This document shows, one piece after another, positions 1,800-60,787 of a stretch of DNA of 64,000 nt. The stretch's first letter is position 1. The number at the start of each line of letters is the position of its first letter. The stretch is taken from IMG/VR virus record IMGVR_UViG_3300046516_000137. One strand, given 5' to 3'. The notes under the pieces are model-generated. The model did not search any database, was not told the DNA's origin, and was given only the letters and a program-made list of their open reading frames with translations. The DNA comes from an uncultured virus (IMG/VR IMGVR_UViG_3300046516_000137) (lineage: Duplodnaviria > Heunggongvirae > Uroviricota > Caudoviricetes). The position numbers and the translations under genes were made by a program.

Positions 1800-3060
1800 C
1801 TGTCAGCTCCCGATCGTTGCTATCGGGATTGAAGTCCTCCAACTCTTCAAACTTCCCTGTGTCGTAGTCAAATAGTAGCGTAACACAGACGTTGGCGCAA
1901 CTGCGGGCCATAAGGATCTTCAGCTTACGAAGCTTCTGCTCCTCAAAGCTTCCCTCAACCTCTGGAAGTCGCTCCACTCCAATGACAGTGTTGCTGTACT
2001 CGGAAAACGCACGACTGCCCTTCATGGAGTCACCGTTCAACATCTCACCCTTGGTACGGGCAGCGGTTGACTGAGTGACTACGACGATGCTTATGCTGCG
2101 ACGCATGGCAAGGAACTTAAATCCATTGACAATATTAGCAAGAGCAGCAGCAGTCTCCCGCTCCTGTCCTCTCTCGTCATCCATCATATAGACACCATCA
2201 ACGATCACTACATCCGGCTTGAATGTATCGATCTTTGCACCGACAGCAGATACTGTCATACAGTCTTCCACAATCATCAGAGGTGCCAGGTTCTCAGTAA
2301 GATGGACTGATCGATTAAGCTTTATCCATTCATCCTCGGTAAGGTCGCCTGAATTGATCTTGTTCTCATTAAAACCGGCTCGATAAGCGTCAAGCCTGCG
2401 CTCCTGTTCCTCAACAGTCTGTTCGAATGTCAGATACAGTACACGTTTGTTCTGTTCCTGCACATGCATAGCAATCAGCATAGCAATAGTGGACTTAGAA
2501 GACTTAGGAAGACCTGTAATGGTTGTTAGCTGACCCGGTTGAAGCCCCTGAGTGGCCCTGTCAATCGTTGGAAAACCTGTAGGTATCCCTACCAGGGTTC
2601 CAGGGTTGTTACGGCGTTCAAGGTACCTCTCAAGGCGCTCAGGACCGTTCTGTGTGACATCTACATCCCTACTGCTGACGACTGAGGTGTACACCTTGGT
2701 CAGTGTCATTCCCAGGAAGTTGATAGCCCCGTCGATGTCACCTTCCAGGACAGCATTGTCCACTTCAGCAAGGTTCTCATTCAGAACACTGACAAGATAC
2801 TGCTCCTGTACACGCTTTACCAGGCTTCCCCATGATTCATCCACCTCATGCAGAGTCAGCTTGGGATGGTCTGCCTTGAACTCTCTGACAGTAGGAACAA
2901 TTCCGTGCTCAGTATACTGCTCCCTAATATCTTCAAAGGCTGCCCGAATATCGGGATCGCGAATAAAGAATGCCTGAATGTCTGCTGCTTCTTTTAGAGA
3001 ACGTTCCTGGATAATCTTTGAAATCAGAAGCTTCTCAACATTGAATGTCGTTGACAACAA
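1774..3060 (-). CDS. dnaB: DnaB-like replicative helicase
   Basis: GIPTGFPTIDRATQGLQPGQL, Walker A GLPKSSKS, LTFEQ, VIVDGVYMM. Confidence 0.92.
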   Translation of the reverse strand: MLSTTFNVEKLLISKIIQERSLKEAADIQAFFIRDPDIRAAFEDIREQYTEHGIVPTVREFKADHPKLTLHEVDESWGSLVKRVQEQYLVSVLNENLAEVDNAVLEGDIDGAINFLGMTLTKVYTSVVSSRDVDVTQNGPERLERYLERRNNPGTLVGIPTGFPTIDRATQGLQPGQLTTITGLPKSSKSTIAMLIAMHVQEQNKRVLYLTFEQTVEEQERRLDAYRAGFNENKINSGDLTEDEWIKLNRSVHLTENLAPLMIVEDCMTVSAVGAKIDTFKPDVVIVDGVYMMDDERGQERETAAALANIVNGFKFLAMRRSISIVVVTQSTAARTKGEMLNGDSMKGSRAFSEYSNTVIGVERLPEVEGSFEEQKLRKLKILMARSCANVCVTLLFDYDTGKFEELEDFNPDSNDRELTDEGYETPY

Positions 3061-3066
3061 TACCTC

Positions 3067-3513
3067 CTAAAGAATGTTGTACAGGTTAAGGTCACTACTC
3101 GTAACTGTGCGACCCTTGCTACCCCAAGTCAAGACGTGCTTAGGATCAGGATCGAATACCCTGAGAATAGAAGGATCATATGTCAGGTCATCTAGGAGAG
3201 ACTCCACAGTGAAGTAGTGGATACCTCCGAAGAACATATTCCTGCTGTCCAGTTTATTTCTAATCGGGTCCACGAATTCGGGATCTACAAAGGTGATGAC
3301 ATCAATTCTGAAGTCTCTCCTGTGCAGATCCCGAATGCCTTGCGTAGTCTTGGTGCTCAAATCATAGTAGTCTACTGCCTGCTGCCACTTCTTTCTCTTT
3401 CGAGCCAGTGCTTCAAGGGCACGGGTCTTGGCGTCAGGCAGTATACCAATCAGATTCTCGAACACAATATACACGCGGGGCAGGACGCTATTCGATAGCT
3501 CGCCCTTTCGCAA
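3067..3513 (-). CDS. hypothetical protein (possibly degenerate HAD fold)
   Basis: 148-aa ORF packed into the replication operon. Confidence 0.65.
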   Translation of the reverse strand: MRKGELSNSVLPRVYIVFENLIGILPDAKTRALEALARKRKKWQQAVDYYDLSTKTTQGIRDLHRRDFRIDVITFVDPEFVDPIRNKLDSRNMFFGGIHYFTVESLLDDLTYDPSILRVFDPDPKHVLTWGSKGRTVTSSDLNLYNIL

Positions 3514-4451: not shown

Positions 4452-5357
4452 CTAGAAGTCTCCGTCTGCAACTTGCAGTACACGAATTCGCAGCTTACGA
4501 AGACGACGTACAACACGGTCCCTGTCATCGAACCAGGCCAGGATATTGTACTTACCACGAATGTACTTGTCCACCATGTACTGCTTCACATCAGCATCGT
4601 TCCAGTCCTTCTGGTCTATACCATCGCGCATGTAGAATTCCTGGAACCTGATGTGATGAATAGCATTCCATTCCTCAGTGTCCGCGCGGCAAGTATCAGG
4701 GCGACCAGACATTCCAAAATGCGGAGCCCATGGCAGACCGTCCTCAATAACATCTTTAAGCAGAACGATATCTGCATGAGGTGCGTCAGTCAGGACACGA
4801 GTGTAGTCATATGGAGACCTTGCAACATGCTTGGCAGTGGTTCCGTCAGTGTCCCAGACAACACAGTAAGGTAGATCCGGATCAAACTCAAGAGGAGCTG
4901 ACAGGACAACATCGTTCATCCACTCAGCAGTCAGCTTCCACTTATCAATTCGTGCAGCCATCTTACGGATAACCGTTTCACCAACAGAACGTTCTCCGTC
5001 AATTGCGCGGCTCCAGTCATTGGTGATGCAGTCCTCAGTAGTAATATGGCTGAAATCCTGGACCTTGAACAGTACTTCACCATCAAAGAGACGCTTGATG
5101 CGCTTAGGCATATTCTTCTCAATGTGAGTGTTGTCCACAATCACGTCCTTGCCCGCCTTTACAGCAGCAAGAATAGCCTTGTCCTGGATATCCAGTGCAA
5201 TAGCCTCAGCATCCTTTGAGTAAGGAAGTCCAACCATTGCACGGATGTCATCCATGTTCACACGGACAATCTGACCATTGGACTCCTCTACCTGCTGCTT
5301 GGCCCAGGTACTCTTGCCACTAGCGGGCAGACCGCGACAAAGTGTAATCGTAGTCAT
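4452..5357 (-). CDS. pseT: polynucleotide kinase/3'-phosphatase (T4 PseT-like)
   Basis: N-terminal P-loop GLPASGKST and VDNTH; C-terminal HAD motifs DTDGT, SGR and FDDR. Confidence 0.93.
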   Translation of the reverse strand: MTTITLCRGLPASGKSTWAKQQVEESNGQIVRVNMDDIRAMVGLPYSKDAEAIALDIQDKAILAAVKAGKDVIVDNTHIEKNMPKRIKRLFDGEVLFKVQDFSHITTEDCITNDWSRAIDGERSVGETVIRKMAARIDKWKLTAEWMNDVVLSAPLEFDPDLPYCVVWDTDGTTAKHVARSPYDYTRVLTDAPHADIVLLKDVIEDGLPWAPHFGMSGRPDTCRADTEEWNAIHHIRFQEFYMRDGIDQKDWNDADVKQYMVDKYIRGKYNILAWFDDRDRVVRRLRKLRIRVLQVADGDF

Positions 5358-46655: not shown

Positions 46656-47708
46656 TTACTCTGCTTCTGGCCGTACTAAATCCCATACCTTATTGGCAAT
46701 ATCCTTGTTATCCAGTAATGCGAATAAAAGACCTGCATTAGGACTGTCCTTTACATAAAGAGCGAAATCCTTACGTGTGGCAACTCCCTGAAAGTAAAGC
46801 TCTACTGCATGAAACTCTGCACTGATCATAGTATAGGTATCCCAGTAGGCATCAAAGATTACCTGGTAAGTAGAGCGTAACCACTCATGCCATTCATCAG
46901 GAACGATACTGCATAGTTCCTCTAAGGTCTTGCCTTCCTTCATGTTCTCCCAGATCCGACGCTTTGTCAAACCCGTCACGATCTTGTGTAAAAGTACGTA
47001 GTCCTCTTGCTTCAGCTTGATCCTGTAGTCCAGATCGGGGAAGCAGATGACGTAGCCTTCTGCATTGGGTCTAGGAGCGGCTTCTATGGCCTCTCTGAGC
47101 GTCTTGTAGGGGAAGGTAGTGGTCTTGGGACCATACCACTCTTCTACGTCCTTAGCGGGGCGTATAGAGCCTGTTATGGCGTTACGTGCAGCCAAGAGAA
47201 CCAGGTCTTCACGATCCCCATAATTCAGAACGATACGGTTACCTGGATAGATGATCTCTACCAGGTAAGTCTCCTCATGCCACAGATCAAGTTTGTAACC
47301 CTTGTGAGCAGTATTCAAAAACTTGGTTGCCCAGATTGCCTGGTCTGAAACAAAGGAACCACGGGTAGCTACATACCAGTTGTTATGGTACTCAAAGACG
47401 ATACCTAGTGAACCGTCCATCTTGTCAGTTACTTCAACTCGGTAGCTATCCAGTAGACAGTTGTCATCAGGATCTTGTCCGTAATTCAGGAACTTGTCAA
47501 AAGGACGGGCAACAATATTCAACTTGTTGTCAATAATGAGACCACGACACTGTCTGGTTACCTTATTCCACTCATTGTCAAACTGAGCCTTCTCTGTATA
47601 GTTCACGATACTAATCGGTAAAGTGGGGTGCTTATTAACCCTAATATACTTGTCAATTAGCATCTTCCGATAGAGACTCATCGGCATCAGTCCTGAAAGC
47701 TTCGTCAT
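46656..47708 (-). CDS. RNA ligase (T4 Rnl1-like)
   Basis: CRGLI, ARPFDKF, motif I KMDGSL, TRGSF, EGYV, RIKLK. Confidence 0.92.
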   Translation of the reverse strand: MTKLSGLMPMSLYRKMLIDKYIRVNKHPTLPISIVNYTEKAQFDNEWNKVTRQCRGLIIDNKLNIVARPFDKFLNYGQDPDDNCLLDSYRVEVTDKMDGSLGIVFEYHNNWYVATRGSFVSDQAIWATKFLNTAHKGYKLDLWHEETYLVEIIYPGNRIVLNYGDREDLVLLAARNAITGSIRPAKDVEEWYGPKTTTFPYKTLREAIEAAPRPNAEGYVICFPDLDYRIKLKQEDYVLLHKIVTGLTKRRIWENMKEGKTLEELCSIVPDEWHEWLRSTYQVIFDAYWDTYTMISAEFHAVELYFQGVATRKDFALYVKDSPNAGLLFALLDNKDIANKVWDLVRPEAE

Positions 47709-49756: not shown

Positions 49757-49778
49757 TATATTTCTCCTTGTTTGAAAG

Positions 49779-49857
49779 TGGAGATAGGGGGAGTCGAACC
49801 CCCGCTCCTAGCTATTCCGCGTGCGGTTTCAAAGCTAGTCGAATCCAGATAATCCCC
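49779..49857 (-). ncRNA. minimal tmRNA-like RNA (tRNA-like domain only)
   Basis: 5' GGGGATTATCTGGATTCGAC matches the tmRNA 5' signature; P2 CTAGCT/AGCTAG; T arm GGGGG-TTCGACT-CCCCC; G3.U70 and A73. Confidence 0.75.
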
Positions 49858-52799: not shown

Positions 52800-52958
52800 A
52801 TAAATTCTATGTGGTGTGCTGCTACGCCAAAGCTGGGGTTATTATTTCTTGCCCAGGACGATTCCTCGTTACCCTTCCGTTCTGGAAGCACTCTTTAAAA
52901 GATGGCTGCTTCTAAGCCAACTTTCCACATATAGGGAAACGTGTACTTTGTTTCCTTG

Positions 52959-53371: not shown

Positions 53372-53400
53372 AGCTTAGCAGATCAGACTCTCAGAGTCAA
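53372..53400 (-). promoter_or_regulatory. sigma70-type promoter
   Basis: TTGACT-17-TAAGCT with extended -10 TG. Confidence 0.7.
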
Positions 53401-53798
53401 TCTTGCCAGACCCAGCCAGATCGGTGTACTTCAACATCACGTTCATGCTTTTCGATCTCATCTGCTGGAATTACCAGAATGTCATCCTGTAGCAGATACT
53501 GCTCCAACGTAGTATACGTATAGGTATAGCTTCCGAATATGCGTGCAGATTCGATATACTCGTTACCTTCATAGCCGCACCCACGCTCATAAGCAGTAGC
53601 TTCTCTCAAGGAGTCGCTTTGAGTAATGGAATAGTCTTCACCACAGCAAGAACACGTTACGTTATTCGGGTCATGGCCAAAACGGCTGTAGAAGACAGAG
53701 GTAGCTTGATTCTCTGGAGCCTGAATGTAGATGTACTGATATGGAGACTCCTTGGTTCCACCACCAGAATGCATATCCATAAACTGTGTCCACACCAT
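53397..53798 (-). CDS. hypothetical phage protein
   Basis: RBS AAGGAGG; FMDMHSGGG, VTCSCCG. Confidence 0.75.
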   Translation of the reverse strand: MVWTQFMDMHSGGGTKESPYQYIYIQAPENQATSVFYSRFGHDPNNVTCSCCGEDYSITQSDSLREATAYERGCGYEGNEYIESARIFGSYTYTYTTLEQYLLQDDILVIPADEIEKHERDVEVHRSGWVWQD

Positions 53799-53830
53799 AT
53801 TGCCTCCTTTATCGTGGTACGTCATTAGGT

Positions 53831-53864
53831 AAAAATAAACTCCACCAGTATTTCTACGGTGGAG
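53831..53864 (-). terminator. intrinsic terminator
   Basis: CTCCACC...GGTGGAG followed by TTTATTTTT. Confidence 0.65.
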
Positions 53865-53877
53865 AGGATTAAGTTAA

Positions 53878-53986
53878 TGATAGATCGTAGCATACCGGAC
53901 TCGAACCGGTGCGACGGACCAGTAACGATCCGTACTCTACCTCTGAGTTAATACTACGAGACTGAATTAACTGTCTCGATCTATCA
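53878..53986 (-). ncRNA. tRNA-like RNA with irregular anticodon loop and extended acceptor stem
   Basis: Cloverleaf at 53886-53958 with canonical D and T arms; flanking 10-bp inverted repeat. Confidence 0.6.
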
Positions 53987-53988
53987 AG

Positions 53989-54061
53989 CTCCCTCGCCCA
54001 GATTCGAACTGGGAACCGGTGTATTAACAGTACACAACTCTGCCTATTGAGTTACAAGGGA
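53989..54061 (-). tRNA. tRNA-Asn(GTT)
   Basis: Loop CTGTTAA. Confidence 0.9.
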
Positions 54062-54138: not shown

Positions 54139-54209
54139 CACGACGTCAAGGATTCGAACCCTGGATAACGGTTTTGGAGACCGGTGTGTTACCACTACAC
54201 TAACGCCAT
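54139..54209 (-). tRNA. tRNA-Trp(CCA)
   Basis: Loop CTCCAAA. Confidence 0.88.
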
Positions 54210-59851: not shown

Positions 59852-60267
59852 TGACAGGATTCTGGGAAGACGGAAATTACGGTATGGATTTTCTGGCTGC
59901 ACGAAATAAAGCAGATGCCAAGAAGGCAGAAGCGGCCAGAAAGACCAAATGGGAGATAGAAGAGGAACAGCGCAATAAGCTAGCCGCTGCTCTCTGGAAA
60001 ATGGAGACGCATCCTGGCAGAGACCACTGTAGTAGTTGTTTTGGCGAGTACTATGACGGCTATGCCGGTGGTGGAGTAATGATGGATGGCTACTGCTGTT
60101 GCAAGGACAATGGAATTACCGGAGTCGTTCAGCCGCTTGACGATTATGACTATCGTGTCAAGTATCCACCAGTAAATGGAAAGGTCCCCGAAATCTTTGA
60201 AAAGTGGGGACCAAGAACACAGGAACGCTACCTGAAGAGATTTGAAGGAGAACTAAATGGAGCATAA
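59851..60267 (+). CDS. hypothetical protein
   Basis: TAATG coupling; CSSC...CCC. Confidence 0.65.
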   Translation: MTGFWEDGNYGMDFLAARNKADAKKAEAARKTKWEIEEEQRNKLAAALWKMETHPGRDHCSSCFGEYYDGYAGGGVMMDGYCCCKDNGITGVVQPLDDYDYRVKYPPVNGKVPEIFEKWGPRTQERYLKRFEGELNGA

Positions 60268-60787
60268 TCCGATACTGCTACTGGACGTAGATGGTGTTTT
60301 AAATCCGTTTGCGGCCAAGGCTACACAGAGACCTGACGGTTATGAGACCCACAGAATGCGCCCTAATGGCTTTCTTATGCAGAATGCACTTAGAGTATGG
60401 CTTAATCCTCTGCACGGTGAGAAACTCCTGAGTCTCGGCTACGACCTTGTATGGGCAACCATGTGGGAATCCGAAGCCAACGAGTGGATCGCGCCGCATA
60501 TAGGCCTTCCTGAGCTTCCTTTCATCAGTTTCAAGCACGCTAGCTGGTACGACAGGGATGGTCTGTACATCAAGACCAAGACTATTGCACAGACCATGAA
60601 CGAAGAGTATGCTGGGGTACCGTTCATCTGGGTTGATGACGAGACAACTCCCTTTGATACCAACTATCTGAGGCAGAACTGTCCCGTAAGATCAAAAATC
60701 TTTACTATTAACCCCAGAATTGGGCTAGTAGACCGAGATTTTGATGAAATCCGAGCATACAAGGCAAAACTTATGGGATACCGATGA
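60257..60787 (+). CDS. HAD-family phosphatase (RNA-repair-associated type)
   Basis: LLDVDGVLNP, LVWATMW, FIWVDDE. Confidence 0.85.
   Translation: MEHNPILLLDVDGVLNPFAAKATQRPDGYETHRMRPNGFLMQNALRVWLNPLHGEKLLSLGYDLVWATMWESEANEWIAPHIGLPELPFISFKHASWYDRDGLYIKTKTIAQTMNEEYAGVPFIWVDDETTPFDTNYLRQNCPVRSKIFTINPRIGLVDRDFDEIRAYKAKLMGYR

What the first reader, a model, noticed from the sequence alone, without database searches (positions are those of the whole stretch)
53878..53986. tRNA-like RNA with a non-standard anticodon loop, locked in an extended stem
Seen: a cloverleaf (acceptor CGTAGTA/TGCTACG, D arm ACTC-AGAGGTA-GAGT, T arm ACCGG-TTCGAGT-CCGGT) whose anticodon arm ACGGATC-GTTACT-GGTCCGT gives a 6- or 8-nt loop rather than 7. 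It is bracketed by a perfect 10-bp inverted repeat (TGATAGATCG 53878-87 / CGATCTATCA 53977-86) with an extra hairpin in the 5' leader. It begins right after tRNA-Asn and ends at a terminator. Inference: this is probably not a decoding tRNA but a tRNA mimic that resists normal processing, for example a decoy for anticodon nucleases. A suppressor or frameshift tRNA (loop contains TTA) is an alternative.
Basis: partly seen in the sequence, partly recalled or inferred. Interest (0 to 1): 0.7.

Follow-up and report, generated by a model that had tools for sequence, protein, structure and literature searches.

The report
Non-decoding tRNA look-alike in phage
A soil phage related to Streptomyces phages carries, at the end of one of its tRNA operons, a perfectly tRNA-shaped RNA gene whose decoding loop has the wrong size and whose two ends are tied together, so it is most likely a tRNA mimic rather than a working tRNA.

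Summary
At 53886-53957 (- strand) there is a full cloverleaf (Rfam tRNA 45.3 bits; ARAGORN 'tRNA-???', 2-base anticodon) with a 6-nt loop GUUACU closed by C-G (8 nt if that pair opens). A 9-10 bp leader/trailer stem and a 20-nt leader hairpin enclose it. It starts 2 nt after tRNA-Asn and ends 13 nt before a terminator.

It differs from the 30 decoding tRNAs of the array in three ways. It alone has a long flank stem (10 bp against 4-8). It alone lacks C at position 74. It has no close paralogue.

In Ro60-encoding relatives (Streptomyces phages BRock, pSt2308 and Alone3, plus uncultured contigs) the same slot holds 3-6 Y-RNA-like units followed by the Ro60 gene. Two of those arrays carry a cassette with the same closing stem but different contents. 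The window's lineage has no Ro60 gene.

The 8-mer C-GUUACU-G recurs, stem-closed, on three unrelated tRNA bodies in metagenomes and in none of 34 pattern hits in cellular genomes.

Best reading (about 0.45): a non-decoding tRNA mimic, laid out like the Deinococcus Y RNA, that descends from or replaced a Ro60/Y-RNA cassette; its partner is unknown. A decoder with an expanded loop is not excluded.

The scan has noted other phage tRNA mimics on other DNA, but those are permuted.

The parts
53978..53986 (-). 5' strand of the closing stem (UGAUAGAUC). The perfect inverted repeat extends to 53977.
   Evidence: In relative L002 one A becomes G, changing A-U to G-U, so the pair is kept.
53958..53977 (-). 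Leader hairpin GAGAC-AGUUAAUUCA-GUCUC, stacked directly on the acceptor stem.
   Evidence: Fold. The loop differs by one base in L002. Its GUUAAUUCA resembles the G[U/A]UACUUCA box of Y-RNA-like units in relatives; this likeness was noticed post hoc.
53886..53957 (-). tRNA-shaped core (acceptor, D arm, odd 'anticodon' arm, 4-nt variable loop, T arm, discriminator G).
   Evidence: Rfam tRNA 45.3 bits. ARAGORN tRNA-???. Identical in L002. No differences in a variant strain contig.
53915..53932 (-). 'Anticodon' arm CGGAUC-GUUACU-GGUCCG. The loop is 53921-53926 (6 nt), or 8 nt (CGUUACUG) if the C-G pair opens.
   Evidence: The same 8-mer is stem-closed in L035, L036 and L038. The arm helix has compensatory changes in 4 of 6 pairs across 3 distinct sequences.
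53878..53886 (-). 3' strand of the closing stem (GAUCUAUCA). It begins with the discriminator base.
53874..53987 (-). The 114-nt stretch that is absent from relative L011, where tRNA-Asn runs straight into the same terminator.
   Evidence: One search compared. CUU occurs at both junctions.
53831..53864 (-). Terminator-like hairpin CUCCACC-(11 nt)-GGUGGAG followed by UUUAUUUUU.
   Evidence: Conserved in L002 and L011. Not listed by the scan, whose loop limit is 8.
53989..54061 (-). tRNA-Asn(GUU) immediately upstream, in the same transcription unit by position.
   Evidence: Replaced by a divergent allele in L002 and in a strain contig.
53397..53825 (-). 142-aa ORF of unknown function. It sits where relatives have the Ro60 gene and follows the conserved 'acguaccac...aggagg' leader.
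   Evidence: 159 homologue clusters, all unnamed. No PHROG. Confident model (pLDDT 88.8) with no structural match.

Best explanation
The element is a non-coding, non-decoding tRNA mimic.

How it is made and folded:
- It is transcribed as the last gene of the ORF-Leu(UAG)-Trp-Asn unit, which ends at the terminator 13 nt downstream (inferred from position).
- It folds into a normal L-shaped tRNA body. The nucleotides for the usual tertiary contacts are all present: U8, A14, G15/C48, G18 G19, U54 U55 C56, A58 (read from the sequence; the contact rules are recalled).
- The arm in the anticodon position ends in a 6-nt loop GUUACU closed by C-G, which cannot present a triplet in the normal way.
- The 5' leader and 3' trailer pair over 9-10 bp. 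The discriminator and what would be the CCA site therefore lie inside a helix, so the RNA probably stays a closed molecule of about 110 nt and is not trimmed and charged (inferred).

Closest layout: this is the layout of the Deinococcus Y RNA Yrn1, which has D arm, a 5-bp stem with a 6-nt loop, T arm, and ends paired.

Origin: it occupies the slot that in related phages holds arrays of Y-RNA-like units plus the Ro60 gene. It shares its closing stem and 3' flank with one cassette of those arrays. It most likely descends from, or replaced the contents of, such a cassette in a lineage that lost Ro60.

Proposed mechanism (inferred): it acts as bait or scaffold. The tRNA body recruits tRNA-binding host or phage factors, and the hairpin UC-GUUACU-GG is the specific recognition element for a partner still unknown.
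For: Shape:
- Rfam tRNA 45.3 bits over the full model.
- The minimum-energy fold gives cloverleaf, hairpin and closing stem without any unpaired junction base; z = -2.83.

Set apart from the decoding tRNAs:
- It is the only one of 31 calls without a triplet anticodon.
- Its flank helix is 10 bp against 4-8 bp for the other 30.
- Position 74 is A in 2 of 2 copies, against C in 158 of 158 anticodon-bearing tRNAs of the window, L010, L011, L012, L014, L001 and L008.
- The best identity to any of 163 other tRNAs is about 70-74%, so it is not a recent copy.

Slot and ancestry:
- The terminase is 79-80% identical to those of Streptomyces phages BRock, Alone3, LuckySocke, GiJojo and pSt2308.
- In BRock, pSt2308, Alone3, L012 and L014 the stretch from tRNA-Asn to the next tRNA holds 3-6 tandem units followed by a Ro60-type gene. 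Each unit has a covarying closing helix, (G/A)AUGCG, G(U/A)UACUUC and UUUUCUAG.
- Units hit Rfam YrlA at 28-37.7 bits, below the gathering score of 69.
- TROVE is found in pSt2308 but not in the complete 112.6-kb relative G002 that carries the mimic, and not among the window's 53 scanned ORFs.
- L014 and L085 carry, inside their arrays, a cassette bracketed by UUGAUAGA...UCUAUCA and followed by (A/U)(C/U)UAACUU, like the window element, but with other contents.

A recurrent hairpin that is not an anticodon:
- The pattern CGTTACTG-N11-13-GGTTCGAGTCC gave 9 metagenome loci. In 3 of them the 8-mer is stem-closed in a cloverleaf.
- L035 and L036 are ARAGORN 'tRNA-??? (ta)'.
- L038 is a tRNA-Asn(GUU) with a normal anticodon loop that carries the hairpin as a long extra arm and is followed by a permuted tRNA-like unit.
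- Across window, L035 and L036 the arm keeps 16 of 18 cells paired, with both-side changes in 4 of 6 pairs.
- A looser pattern over 185,579 species genomes gave 34 hits and 0 ARAGORN tRNA calls.

Literature (passages of PMC4201824 read): Yrn1 can be drawn with a 5-bp 'anticodon' stem and a 6-nt loop, and it differs from YrlA in the order of its arms. YrlA RNAs are tRNA mimics modified by tRNA enzymes.

Context: the same array holds two more RNA look-alikes, a tag-less tmRNA-like domain and a 23S fragment.
Against: - No partner is identified and no expression or end-mapping data exist.
- No Ro60 gene is present, and the Ro-binding box of the relatives' units ((G/A)AUGCG ... UUUUCUAG) is absent from the element and from the window's array.
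- Rfam YrlA does not match the element even at E <= 10.
- The likeness of GUUACU and GUUAAUUCA to the Y-unit box is short and was noticed post hoc. In the units that box is not consistently a hairpin loop.
- The metagenome look-alikes were selected by a pattern that fixes the loop, so they say nothing about loop variation. L035 and L036 have no closing stem. L035 encodes U73-CCA like a real tRNA.
- Only one relative lineage carries the element (L002/G002 and strain contigs). The sequence is identical there, so there is no covariation within the true orthologues.
- L011, the next closest relative, does without it.
Confidence: 0.45

Rival explanations
1. It is a working, aminoacylated tRNA with an expanded 8-nt loop (C-G-UUAC-U-G, or C-G-U-UAC-U-G with an extra base 5' of the U-turn). 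It would read GUA/GUAA or UAA and promote frameshifting, quadruplet reading or stop suppression.
For: - The body is as good as the array's true tRNAs (45.3 bits) and all stems are perfect.
- ARAGORN labels it '?(Stop|Val)'.
- Three unrelated bodies share the same loop, as isoacceptors do.
- L035 encodes a 3' CCA and sits between a 352-aa ORF, which I read as tail-tube-like without testing it against any library, and the next ORF.
- Natural 8-nt-loop decoders exist, for example yeast mitochondrial tRNA-Thr (PMC3113583; title and abstract seen in the listing).
Against: - No U33/purine-37 layout fits any register.
- The C-G pair would close the loop to 6 nt.
- The ends are locked in a stem seen in none of the 30 other tRNAs.
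- It lacks the C74 found in 158 of 158 family tRNAs.
- TAA ends 29 of 52 ORFs, and in-frame GUA-A occurs 138 times in 15,040 codons. An efficient reader of either would damage the phage's own proteins.
- In L038 the same hairpin sits on a tRNA that already has a normal anticodon loop.
- No interrupted gene that needs such a tRNA was seen among the 53 ORFs scanned against Pfam.
Confidence: 0.15
2. It is a decoy or inhibitor for a host tRNA-cleaving defence enzyme (anticodon nuclease). This is a special case of the mimic reading.
For: - The phage invests in tRNA repair and supply: an Rnl1-type RNA ligase, a polynucleotide kinase-phosphatase, a HAD_SAK_2 domain and 30 tRNAs.
- The loop contains GUU-A, like the neighbouring tRNA-Asn loop, and UUAC, like tRNA-Val(UAC).
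- Phage tRNAs are argued to be shaped by anticodon nucleases (PMC10264068; abstract and passages read).
Against: - No nuclease is identified and the host is unknown.
- That paper describes cleavage-resistant decoders, not decoys; a search of its main text found 0 occurrences of 'decoy'.
- Nothing in the sequence ties the loop to a known cleavage site. Any such match would rest on recall.
Confidence: 0.15
3. It is a cis-acting end structure of the tRNA operon: a tRNA-shaped processing or stability element. It would draw RNase P to release tRNA-Asn and, with the closing stem, shield the transcript's 3' end. It would have no role as a free RNA.
For: - It is the last element before the terminator and lies 2 nt after tRNA-Asn.
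- tRNA-like structures are RNase P substrates, for example M. smegmatis YrlA (PMC4201824; passages read).
Against: - L011 has tRNA-Asn joined directly to the same terminator and needs no such element.
- A processing signal would not need a specific loop that recurs in unrelated phages.
- The other sub-operons of the array have nothing like it.
Confidence: 0.12
4. It is a decaying tRNA gene or a relic of the lost Ro60/Y-RNA array, with no present function.
For: - It is present in only one lineage and absent from the next relative.
- There is no Ro60 partner.
- No variation is available to show purifying selection.
Against: - There is not one mismatch in the four cloverleaf stems, the leader hairpin stem or the closing stem.
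- The nucleotides for tertiary contacts are intact.
- No single insertion or deletion turns the loop into a standard anticodon loop with a purine at position 37.
- The same 8-mer loop occurs on three unrelated bodies.
Confidence: 0.1

Closest known systems
Deinococcus radiodurans Y RNA Yrn1 (partner of the Ro60 orthologue Rsr), as described in PMC4201824
   Same: - Unpermuted order of the tRNA-like arms.
- A 5-bp stem with a 6-nt loop in the anticodon position.
- 5' and 3' ends paired into a stem.
- It does not decode.
(Passages read.)
   Different: - No Ro60 gene in this phage lineage.
- No Ro-binding box.
- A complete D arm, whereas the paper says Yrn1 lacks a full one.
- No Rfam family other than tRNA matches the element at a meaningful score. 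I did not see the Yrn1 sequence itself.
YrlA, Y RNA-like A (Rfam RF02553), of bacteria and phages
   Same: - A tRNA-mimicking RNA with ends closed by a stem, found in phage genomes.
- The syntenic slot of relatives holds YrlA-like units next to Ro60.
   Different: - YrlA is circularly permuted (T arm, capped acceptor hairpin, D arm) and its anticodon stem leads into the Ro-binding stem. This element has the normal order and an open acceptor stem.
- No GNCGAAN0-1G-type box.
- No RF02553 match at E <= 10.
Canonical bacterial or phage tRNA (Rfam RF00005)
   Same: Acceptor, D, T and variable regions, with the nucleotides for tertiary contacts; 45.3 bits.
   Different: - Loop of 6 or 8 nt without the U33/R37 layout.
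- Ends paired over 9-10 bp.
- A74 instead of the family-wide C74.
Natural and mutant tRNAs with 8-nt anticodon loops (yeast mitochondrial tRNA-Thr, PMC3113583; classical +1 frameshift suppressors, recalled)
   Same: An otherwise normal tRNA body with an enlarged loop.
   Different: - Those keep the U-turn uridine and a purine 3' of the anticodon, and they have free CCA ends (recalled). Here neither is evident.
- For PMC3113583 I saw only the title and abstract in the listing.
Stable small RNAs encoded in the phage T4 tRNA gene cluster (species 1 and 2 RNAs; recalled, no call)
   Same: Non-tRNA stable RNAs of unknown function, encoded at the end of a phage tRNA cluster.
   Different: No sequence or structure comparison was made here. 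This is a recalled analogy only.

Membership tests
Decoding tRNA | Cloverleaf with acceptor, D, anticodon and T arms, and the nucleotides for tertiary contacts | tested here: met
   RF00005 45.3 bits over model 1-71; fold.
Decoding tRNA | 7-nt anticodon loop with U33, a triplet and a purine at position 37 | tested here: not met
   The loop is GUUACU (6 nt) or CGUUACUG (8 nt). ARAGORN finds only a 2-base 'anticodon'.
Decoding tRNA | Free single-stranded 3' end (discriminator plus CCA) after processing, and aminoacylation | not testable with these tools
   The discriminator and trailer are paired to the leader in the predicted fold. Position 74 is A against C in 158 of 158 family tRNAs. There are no RNA data.
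YrlA (RF02553) | Score at or above the Rfam gathering threshold (69 bits) | tested here: not met
   No RF02553 match on 53820-54000 at E <= 10.
YrlA (RF02553) | Permuted tRNA-like domain (T arm, capped acceptor hairpin, D arm) | tested here: not met
   The order here is acceptor 5', D, odd arm, T, acceptor 3'.
YrlA / Y RNAs in general | Ro-binding box near the 5' end (GNCGAAN0-1G in PMC4201824; (G/A)AUGCG ... UUUUCUAG in the related phages) | tested here: not met
   The leader reads UGAUAGAUCGAGACAG and only a CGA core is shared. There is no GATGCG/TTTCTAG pair on the - strand of the array.
YrlA / Y RNAs in general | Encoded within about 4 kb of a Ro60 (TROVE) gene on the same strand | tested here: not met
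   No TROVE among the 53 window ORFs scanned, nor in the complete relative G002. The criterion is met at the syntenic slot of BRock, pSt2308, Alone3 and L014, and in L012 by the reading of its ORF start.
Yrn1-type Y RNA | Unpermuted tRNA-like arms, a 5-bp stem with a 6-nt loop, and ends paired | tested here: met
   Fold, compared with the description in PMC4201824.
Yrn1-type Y RNA | Binds Rsr/Ro60 and tethers it to an effector | not testable with these tools
   The host is unknown. A TROVE gene was found in 15 of 151 sampled genomes of one actinomycete class, so a host partner is possible but not general.

The most novel reading that the evidence does not exclude
The hairpin UC-GUUACU-GG may be a portable recognition tag that phages graft onto tRNA scaffolds. 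It sits in place of the anticodon loop in this phage, L035 and L036, and as an extra arm on a tRNA-Asn in L038. That would define a Ro60-independent class of tRNA-shaped RNAs that capture one particular tRNA-binding factor of the host, such as a defence nuclease, a modification enzyme or a synthetase. This class would have replaced the Ro60/Y-RNA module in one branch of the BRock-like phages.
Probability: 0.3. Interest if true: 0.75.

Novelty: new variant of a known kind. Interest (0 to 1): 0.55.

Why it matters
Phage tRNA arrays are usually read as codon supply or as replacements for tRNAs cut by host defences. This array also carries RNAs that only look like parts of the translation machinery.

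An unpermuted, end-locked tRNA mimic sitting exactly where relatives keep Ro60 and its Y RNAs gives a natural experiment on two questions:
- What do Y-RNA-type tRNA mimics do?
- Can they work without Ro60?

The recurring GUUACU hairpin offers a concrete handle (loop mutants, pull-downs) for finding the partner. On the practical side, such genes are mis-called or left 'undetermined' by tRNA finders. The Y-RNA-like arrays of cultured Streptomyces phages are unannotated, or are annotated as a tRNA.

Tried and rejected
Access and earlier notes:
- The window's own assembly is not held. The nearest held record, G001, is a 28-kb fragment without the region.
- Earlier notes by place and by sequence returned nothing.

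Searches for relatives of the element:
- blastn of the 123-nt element against 50,697 phage records gave only a 24-nt T-arm match.
- Three pattern scans of viral contigs found true copies only in the one relative contig. The other 16 of 17, 7 of 8 and 29 of 30 hits were coding or otherwise unrelated sequence.
- One of those unrelated hits, L078, is a different odd tRNA-like.
- The genome-contig scan gave 34 hits, none called a tRNA by ARAGORN.
- Of the 9 metagenome loci, 6 looked like chance or other RNAs.

Is the 142-aa ORF the partner?
- Homologues in L003-L005 have no tRNA-like directly upstream.
- No PHROG family and only unnamed homologues.
- The AlphaFold model (pLDDT 88.8) has no Foldseek match at E <= 0.001, and the best VIA-align Z is 3.0.
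- I dropped the idea as untestable here.

Other checks that led nowhere:
- ARAGORN 'tRNA' calls next to Ro60 genes in L084, L087 and L089 turned out to be mis-folded Y units or ordinary tRNAs, not unpermuted GUUACU-loop elements.
- GTTACTG sites in L083 and L085 outside the arrays are not hairpin loops.
- The alignment of the leader with the 5' ends of Y units shares CUUGAYAG and little else, so common descent of the leader is suggestive only.
- No RNA holder is listed among 21 public runs. Laid contigs gave no variant inside the element.

Literature: searches found no paper describing this loop or an unpermuted phage tRNA mimic with a closing stem. Only the library of those searches was covered.

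Not used: complex prediction, because there is no candidate partner.

Full report
**What is there.** The window is part of a tailed phage. It has a T4-type sheath, tube and baseplate, a portal and a terminase. It carries 31 ARAGORN tRNA calls on the - strand between 48.2 and 57.7 kb. The terminase is 79-80% identical to those of Streptomyces phages BRock (genus Borockvirus), Alone3, LuckySocke, GiJojo and pSt2308. DNA of the phage occurs in rhizosphere, root and soil metagenome runs.

The finding is the one call without a triplet anticodon: tRNA-??? at 53885-53958, 'anticodon (ta)'. Rfam's tRNA model matches 53886-53957 over its full length at 45.3 bits, within the range of the neighbouring tRNAs. 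Read on the - strand, the parts are:
- closing-stem strand UGAUAGAUC
- hairpin GAGAC-AGUUAAUUCA-GUCUC
- acceptor GUAGUAU
- UA
- D arm ACUC-AGAGGUA-GAGU
- A
- arm CGGAUC-GUUACU-GGUCCG
- UCGC
- T arm ACCGG-UUCGAGU-CCGGU
- acceptor AUGCUAC
- discriminator G, which opens the other closing-stem strand GAUCUAUCA

The minimum-energy fold reproduces exactly this, with no unpaired base at the three-way junction (-41.5 kcal/mol, z = -2.83, 1 of 200 shuffles as stable). tRNA-Asn ends 2 nt upstream. A 7-bp GC-rich hairpin with a U-run lies 13 nt downstream.

**Is it more than chance, and is it like its neighbours?** I compared 45 nt of leader with 45 nt of trailer for all 31 tRNA calls. The target has a 10-bp perfect helix and the other 30 have 4-8 bp.

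ARAGORN's calls end one base past the discriminator. That base is C in 158 of 158 anticodon-bearing tRNAs of the window and six related loci, and A in both copies of the odd gene. In either acceptor register, position 74 of the odd gene is not C. I do not know what C74 does in this family. It is a shared 3'-end signature that the element lacks.

The core has no close paralogue among 163 other tRNAs of the family; the best identity is about 70-74%. No single insertion or deletion would restore a standard loop with a U-turn uridine and a purine after the triplet.

**Relatives.**
- A 112.6-kb contig (L002/L010/G002, CheckV 100%) has the same core. One A-to-G change in the closing stem keeps pairing as G-U, and there is one change in the hairpin loop. 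The adjacent tRNA-Asn is a quite different allele.
- A 26-kb strain contig from a public run shows 7 differences over 53400-53991, none inside the element. It too has other alleles for tRNA-Asn and tRNA-Trp. The orthologues therefore give no covariation either way.
- The next relative (L011, RNA ligase 72% identical) has tRNA-Asn joined directly to the same terminator. The 114 nt from 53874 to 53987 are missing, with CUU at both junctions, and no ORF follows.

**The slot in Ro60-encoding relatives.** In BRock, pSt2308, Alone3, L012 and L014, the stretch between tRNA-Asn and the next tRNA holds 3-6 tandem units. A gene annotated 'Ro-like RNA binding protein' or 'RNA-binding protein' follows. 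TROVE was confirmed for pSt2308 at 55.4 bits. Each unit has:
- a closing helix whose sequence differs from unit to unit,
- a (G/A)AUGCG box,
- a G(U/A)UACUUC box 9-11 nt later,
- a UUUUCUAG box before the 3' strand of the helix.

Some units contain a T arm, a capped acceptor hairpin and a D arm in YrlA order. These units hit Rfam YrlA at 28-37.7 bits, below the gathering score of 69. In a crude count, the G(A/T)TACT(T/G) word occurs about 34 times in the 1.8 kb upstream of 15 Ro60-type genes, in 11 of the 15 loci.

The same 'acguaccac...aggagg' leader that precedes Ro60 in these phages precedes a 142-aa ORF of unknown function in the window. The window's lineage has no TROVE gene.

Two Ro60-encoding phages (L014 and L085) carry, inside their arrays, a cassette closed by UUGAUAGAAGG/CCUUCUAUCAA and followed by ..UAACUUGAC. 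The window element is closed by UUGAUAGAUCG/CGAUCUAUCA and followed by UUAACUUAAU. The contents differ: three small hairpins in those phages, a tRNA shape here.

I read this as a shared cassette frame with swapped contents. The element belongs historically to the Ro60/Y-RNA array, in a lineage that has lost Ro60 and the Ro-binding boxes.

**The loop.** I scanned with the 8-mer plus a T-loop anchor.
- Metagenomes gave 9 loci.
- In three of them the 8-mer C-GUUACU-G is closed by a stem inside a cloverleaf.
- L035 and L036 are again 'tRNA-??? (ta)' for ARAGORN and pass Rfam tRNA at 36.6 and 43.6 bits.
- L038 is a 99-nt tRNA-Asn(GUU) with a normal anticodon loop. It carries ACGCUC-GUUACU-GGGCGU as a long extra arm and is followed by a T-arm/capped-hairpin unit preceded by GGGUUACUUC.
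- Window, L035 and L038 share the 10-mer UCGUUACUGG, which is two bases more than the pattern required.
- Across window, L035 and L036 the arm keeps 16 of 18 cells paired, with both-side changes in 4 of 6 pairs (0 of 500 shuffles reach this). The caveat is that these are only 3 distinct sequences, chosen by the pattern.
- A four-fold looser pattern over one genome for each of 185,579 species gave 34 hits, none of which ARAGORN calls a tRNA.
- Three viral scans found only the known relative.

L035 and L036 have no closing stem. L036 has its own promoter-like TTGACC-17-TATGCT. L035 encodes U73-CCA. The L038 case, with the hairpin beside a normal anticodon loop, argues that the hairpin is a recognition element and not an anticodon.

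**Against a decoder.**
- In 52 ORFs of the window TAA is the commonest stop (29 of 52).
- GUA is the commonest valine codon (427 of 15,040 codons) and is followed by A 138 times. An efficient UAA suppressor or GUAA reader would hit the phage's own genes.
- The Pfam scan of 53 ORFs gave no sign of an interrupted gene.
- These arguments are indirect. A weak or regulated decoder is not excluded.

**Comparison with the known.** Passages of Chen et al. 2014 (PMC4201824) state the following:
- YrlA RNAs have a GNCGAAN0-1G box, a conserved YUAY and a tRNA-like domain modified by tRNA enzymes.
- M. smegmatis YrlA is cut by RNase P and receives CCA.
- D. radiodurans Yrn1 differs in arm order and can be drawn with a 5-bp 'anticodon' stem and a 6-nt loop.

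The window element has the Yrn1 layout, not the YrlA one, and fails the membership features of YrlA. I therefore call it a Y-RNA-like tRNA mimic by layout and by genomic ancestry, not a member of either family.

About 10% of sampled genomes of one actinomycete class encode TROVE (15 of 151). A host Ro60 partner is possible but cannot be assumed.

Earlier notes of this scan describe permuted, anticodon-less tRNA mimics without Ro60 in other phages. I did not check them. They show that the general kind recurs, and this case differs in being unpermuted and end-locked.

**Verdict.** The best-supported reading is a closed, non-decoding tRNA mimic that presents a specific hairpin and derives from the Ro60/Y-RNA cassette system of BRock-like phages. 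Its partner and effect are unknown (confidence about 0.45).

Shown:
- the shape,
- its uniqueness within the array,
- the synteny,
- the shared cassette frame,
- the recurrence of the hairpin.

Inferred:
- that it stays unprocessed and uncharged,
- that it acts as bait or scaffold.

Noticed in passing
window 49776-49857 (-): An 82-nt match to Rfam tmRNA (54.8 bits, above the gathering score of 47) spans the model ends only. It has a tmRNA-type acceptor and T arm, with a short hairpin where the tag reading frame and pseudoknots should be. ARAGORN does not call it. It may be a tag-less tmRNA mimic.
   Followed up: partly
window 52807-52932 (-): Between tRNA-Thr(GGU) and tRNA-Lys(CUU) lies a match to bacterial 23S rRNA model positions 1089-1152 (28.3 bits, E 1.8e-5), enclosed by its own closing stem. 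From recall, the matched sequence looks like the L11-binding GTPase-associated centre. This would be a phage-borne rRNA-fragment look-alike.
   Followed up: partly
L128 (BRock) 2672-3253; L001 (pSt2308) 2307-3003; L008 (Alone3) 2286-3004; L012 4040-4400; L014 2400-3100: Cultured Streptomyces phages and uncultured relatives carry 3-6 tandem Y-RNA-like units between tRNA-Asn and the Ro60-type gene. These are unannotated. In Alone3 part of the last unit is annotated as a 74-nt tRNA-Ser(gct).
   Followed up: partly
window 53989-54061 and 54139-54209; L002 2762-2838: Near-identical strains carry quite different alleles of tRNA-Asn and tRNA-Trp at the same positions, while the flanks stay about 99% identical. 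This looks like cassette-like replacement, in an array with several HNH-type ORFs.
   Followed up: no
window 46656-47708 (-), 4452-5357 (-), 60257-60787 (+): An Rnl1-type RNA ligase, a polynucleotide kinase-phosphatase and a HAD_SAK_2 domain protein. Together these form a tRNA repair set alongside the 30 tRNAs.
   Followed up: no
L005 2560-2680: About 440 nt upstream of a homologue of the 142-aa ORF lies a closed RNA (GGGCCUGCGG...CCGCAGGCCC) with a T-arm-like GGAGGUUCGAAACCUCC; z = -2.86, 0 of 200 shuffles as stable. ARAGORN does not call it.
   Followed up: partly
L078 about 2440-2560 (199.9-kb phage contig): After tRNA-Met lies a tRNA-like with acceptor GCCCCGU/GCGGGGC and CCA. In the anticodon position it has a 7-bp stem and an 11-nt loop containing the self-complementary GUAACGUUAC.
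   Followed up: no
L083 992-1029: Directly after tRNA-Asn of the Ro60-encoding phage L014 there is a near-threshold match to the Rfam abiF RNA motif (32.6 bits; gathering score 37).
   Followed up: no
window 53397-53825 (-): The 142-aa ORF that sits where relatives have Ro60 belongs to a widespread unnamed phage family (159 clusters). It has invariant C58, C60, C61, G62, D64 and Y65, and a confident model with no structural match.
   Followed up: partly
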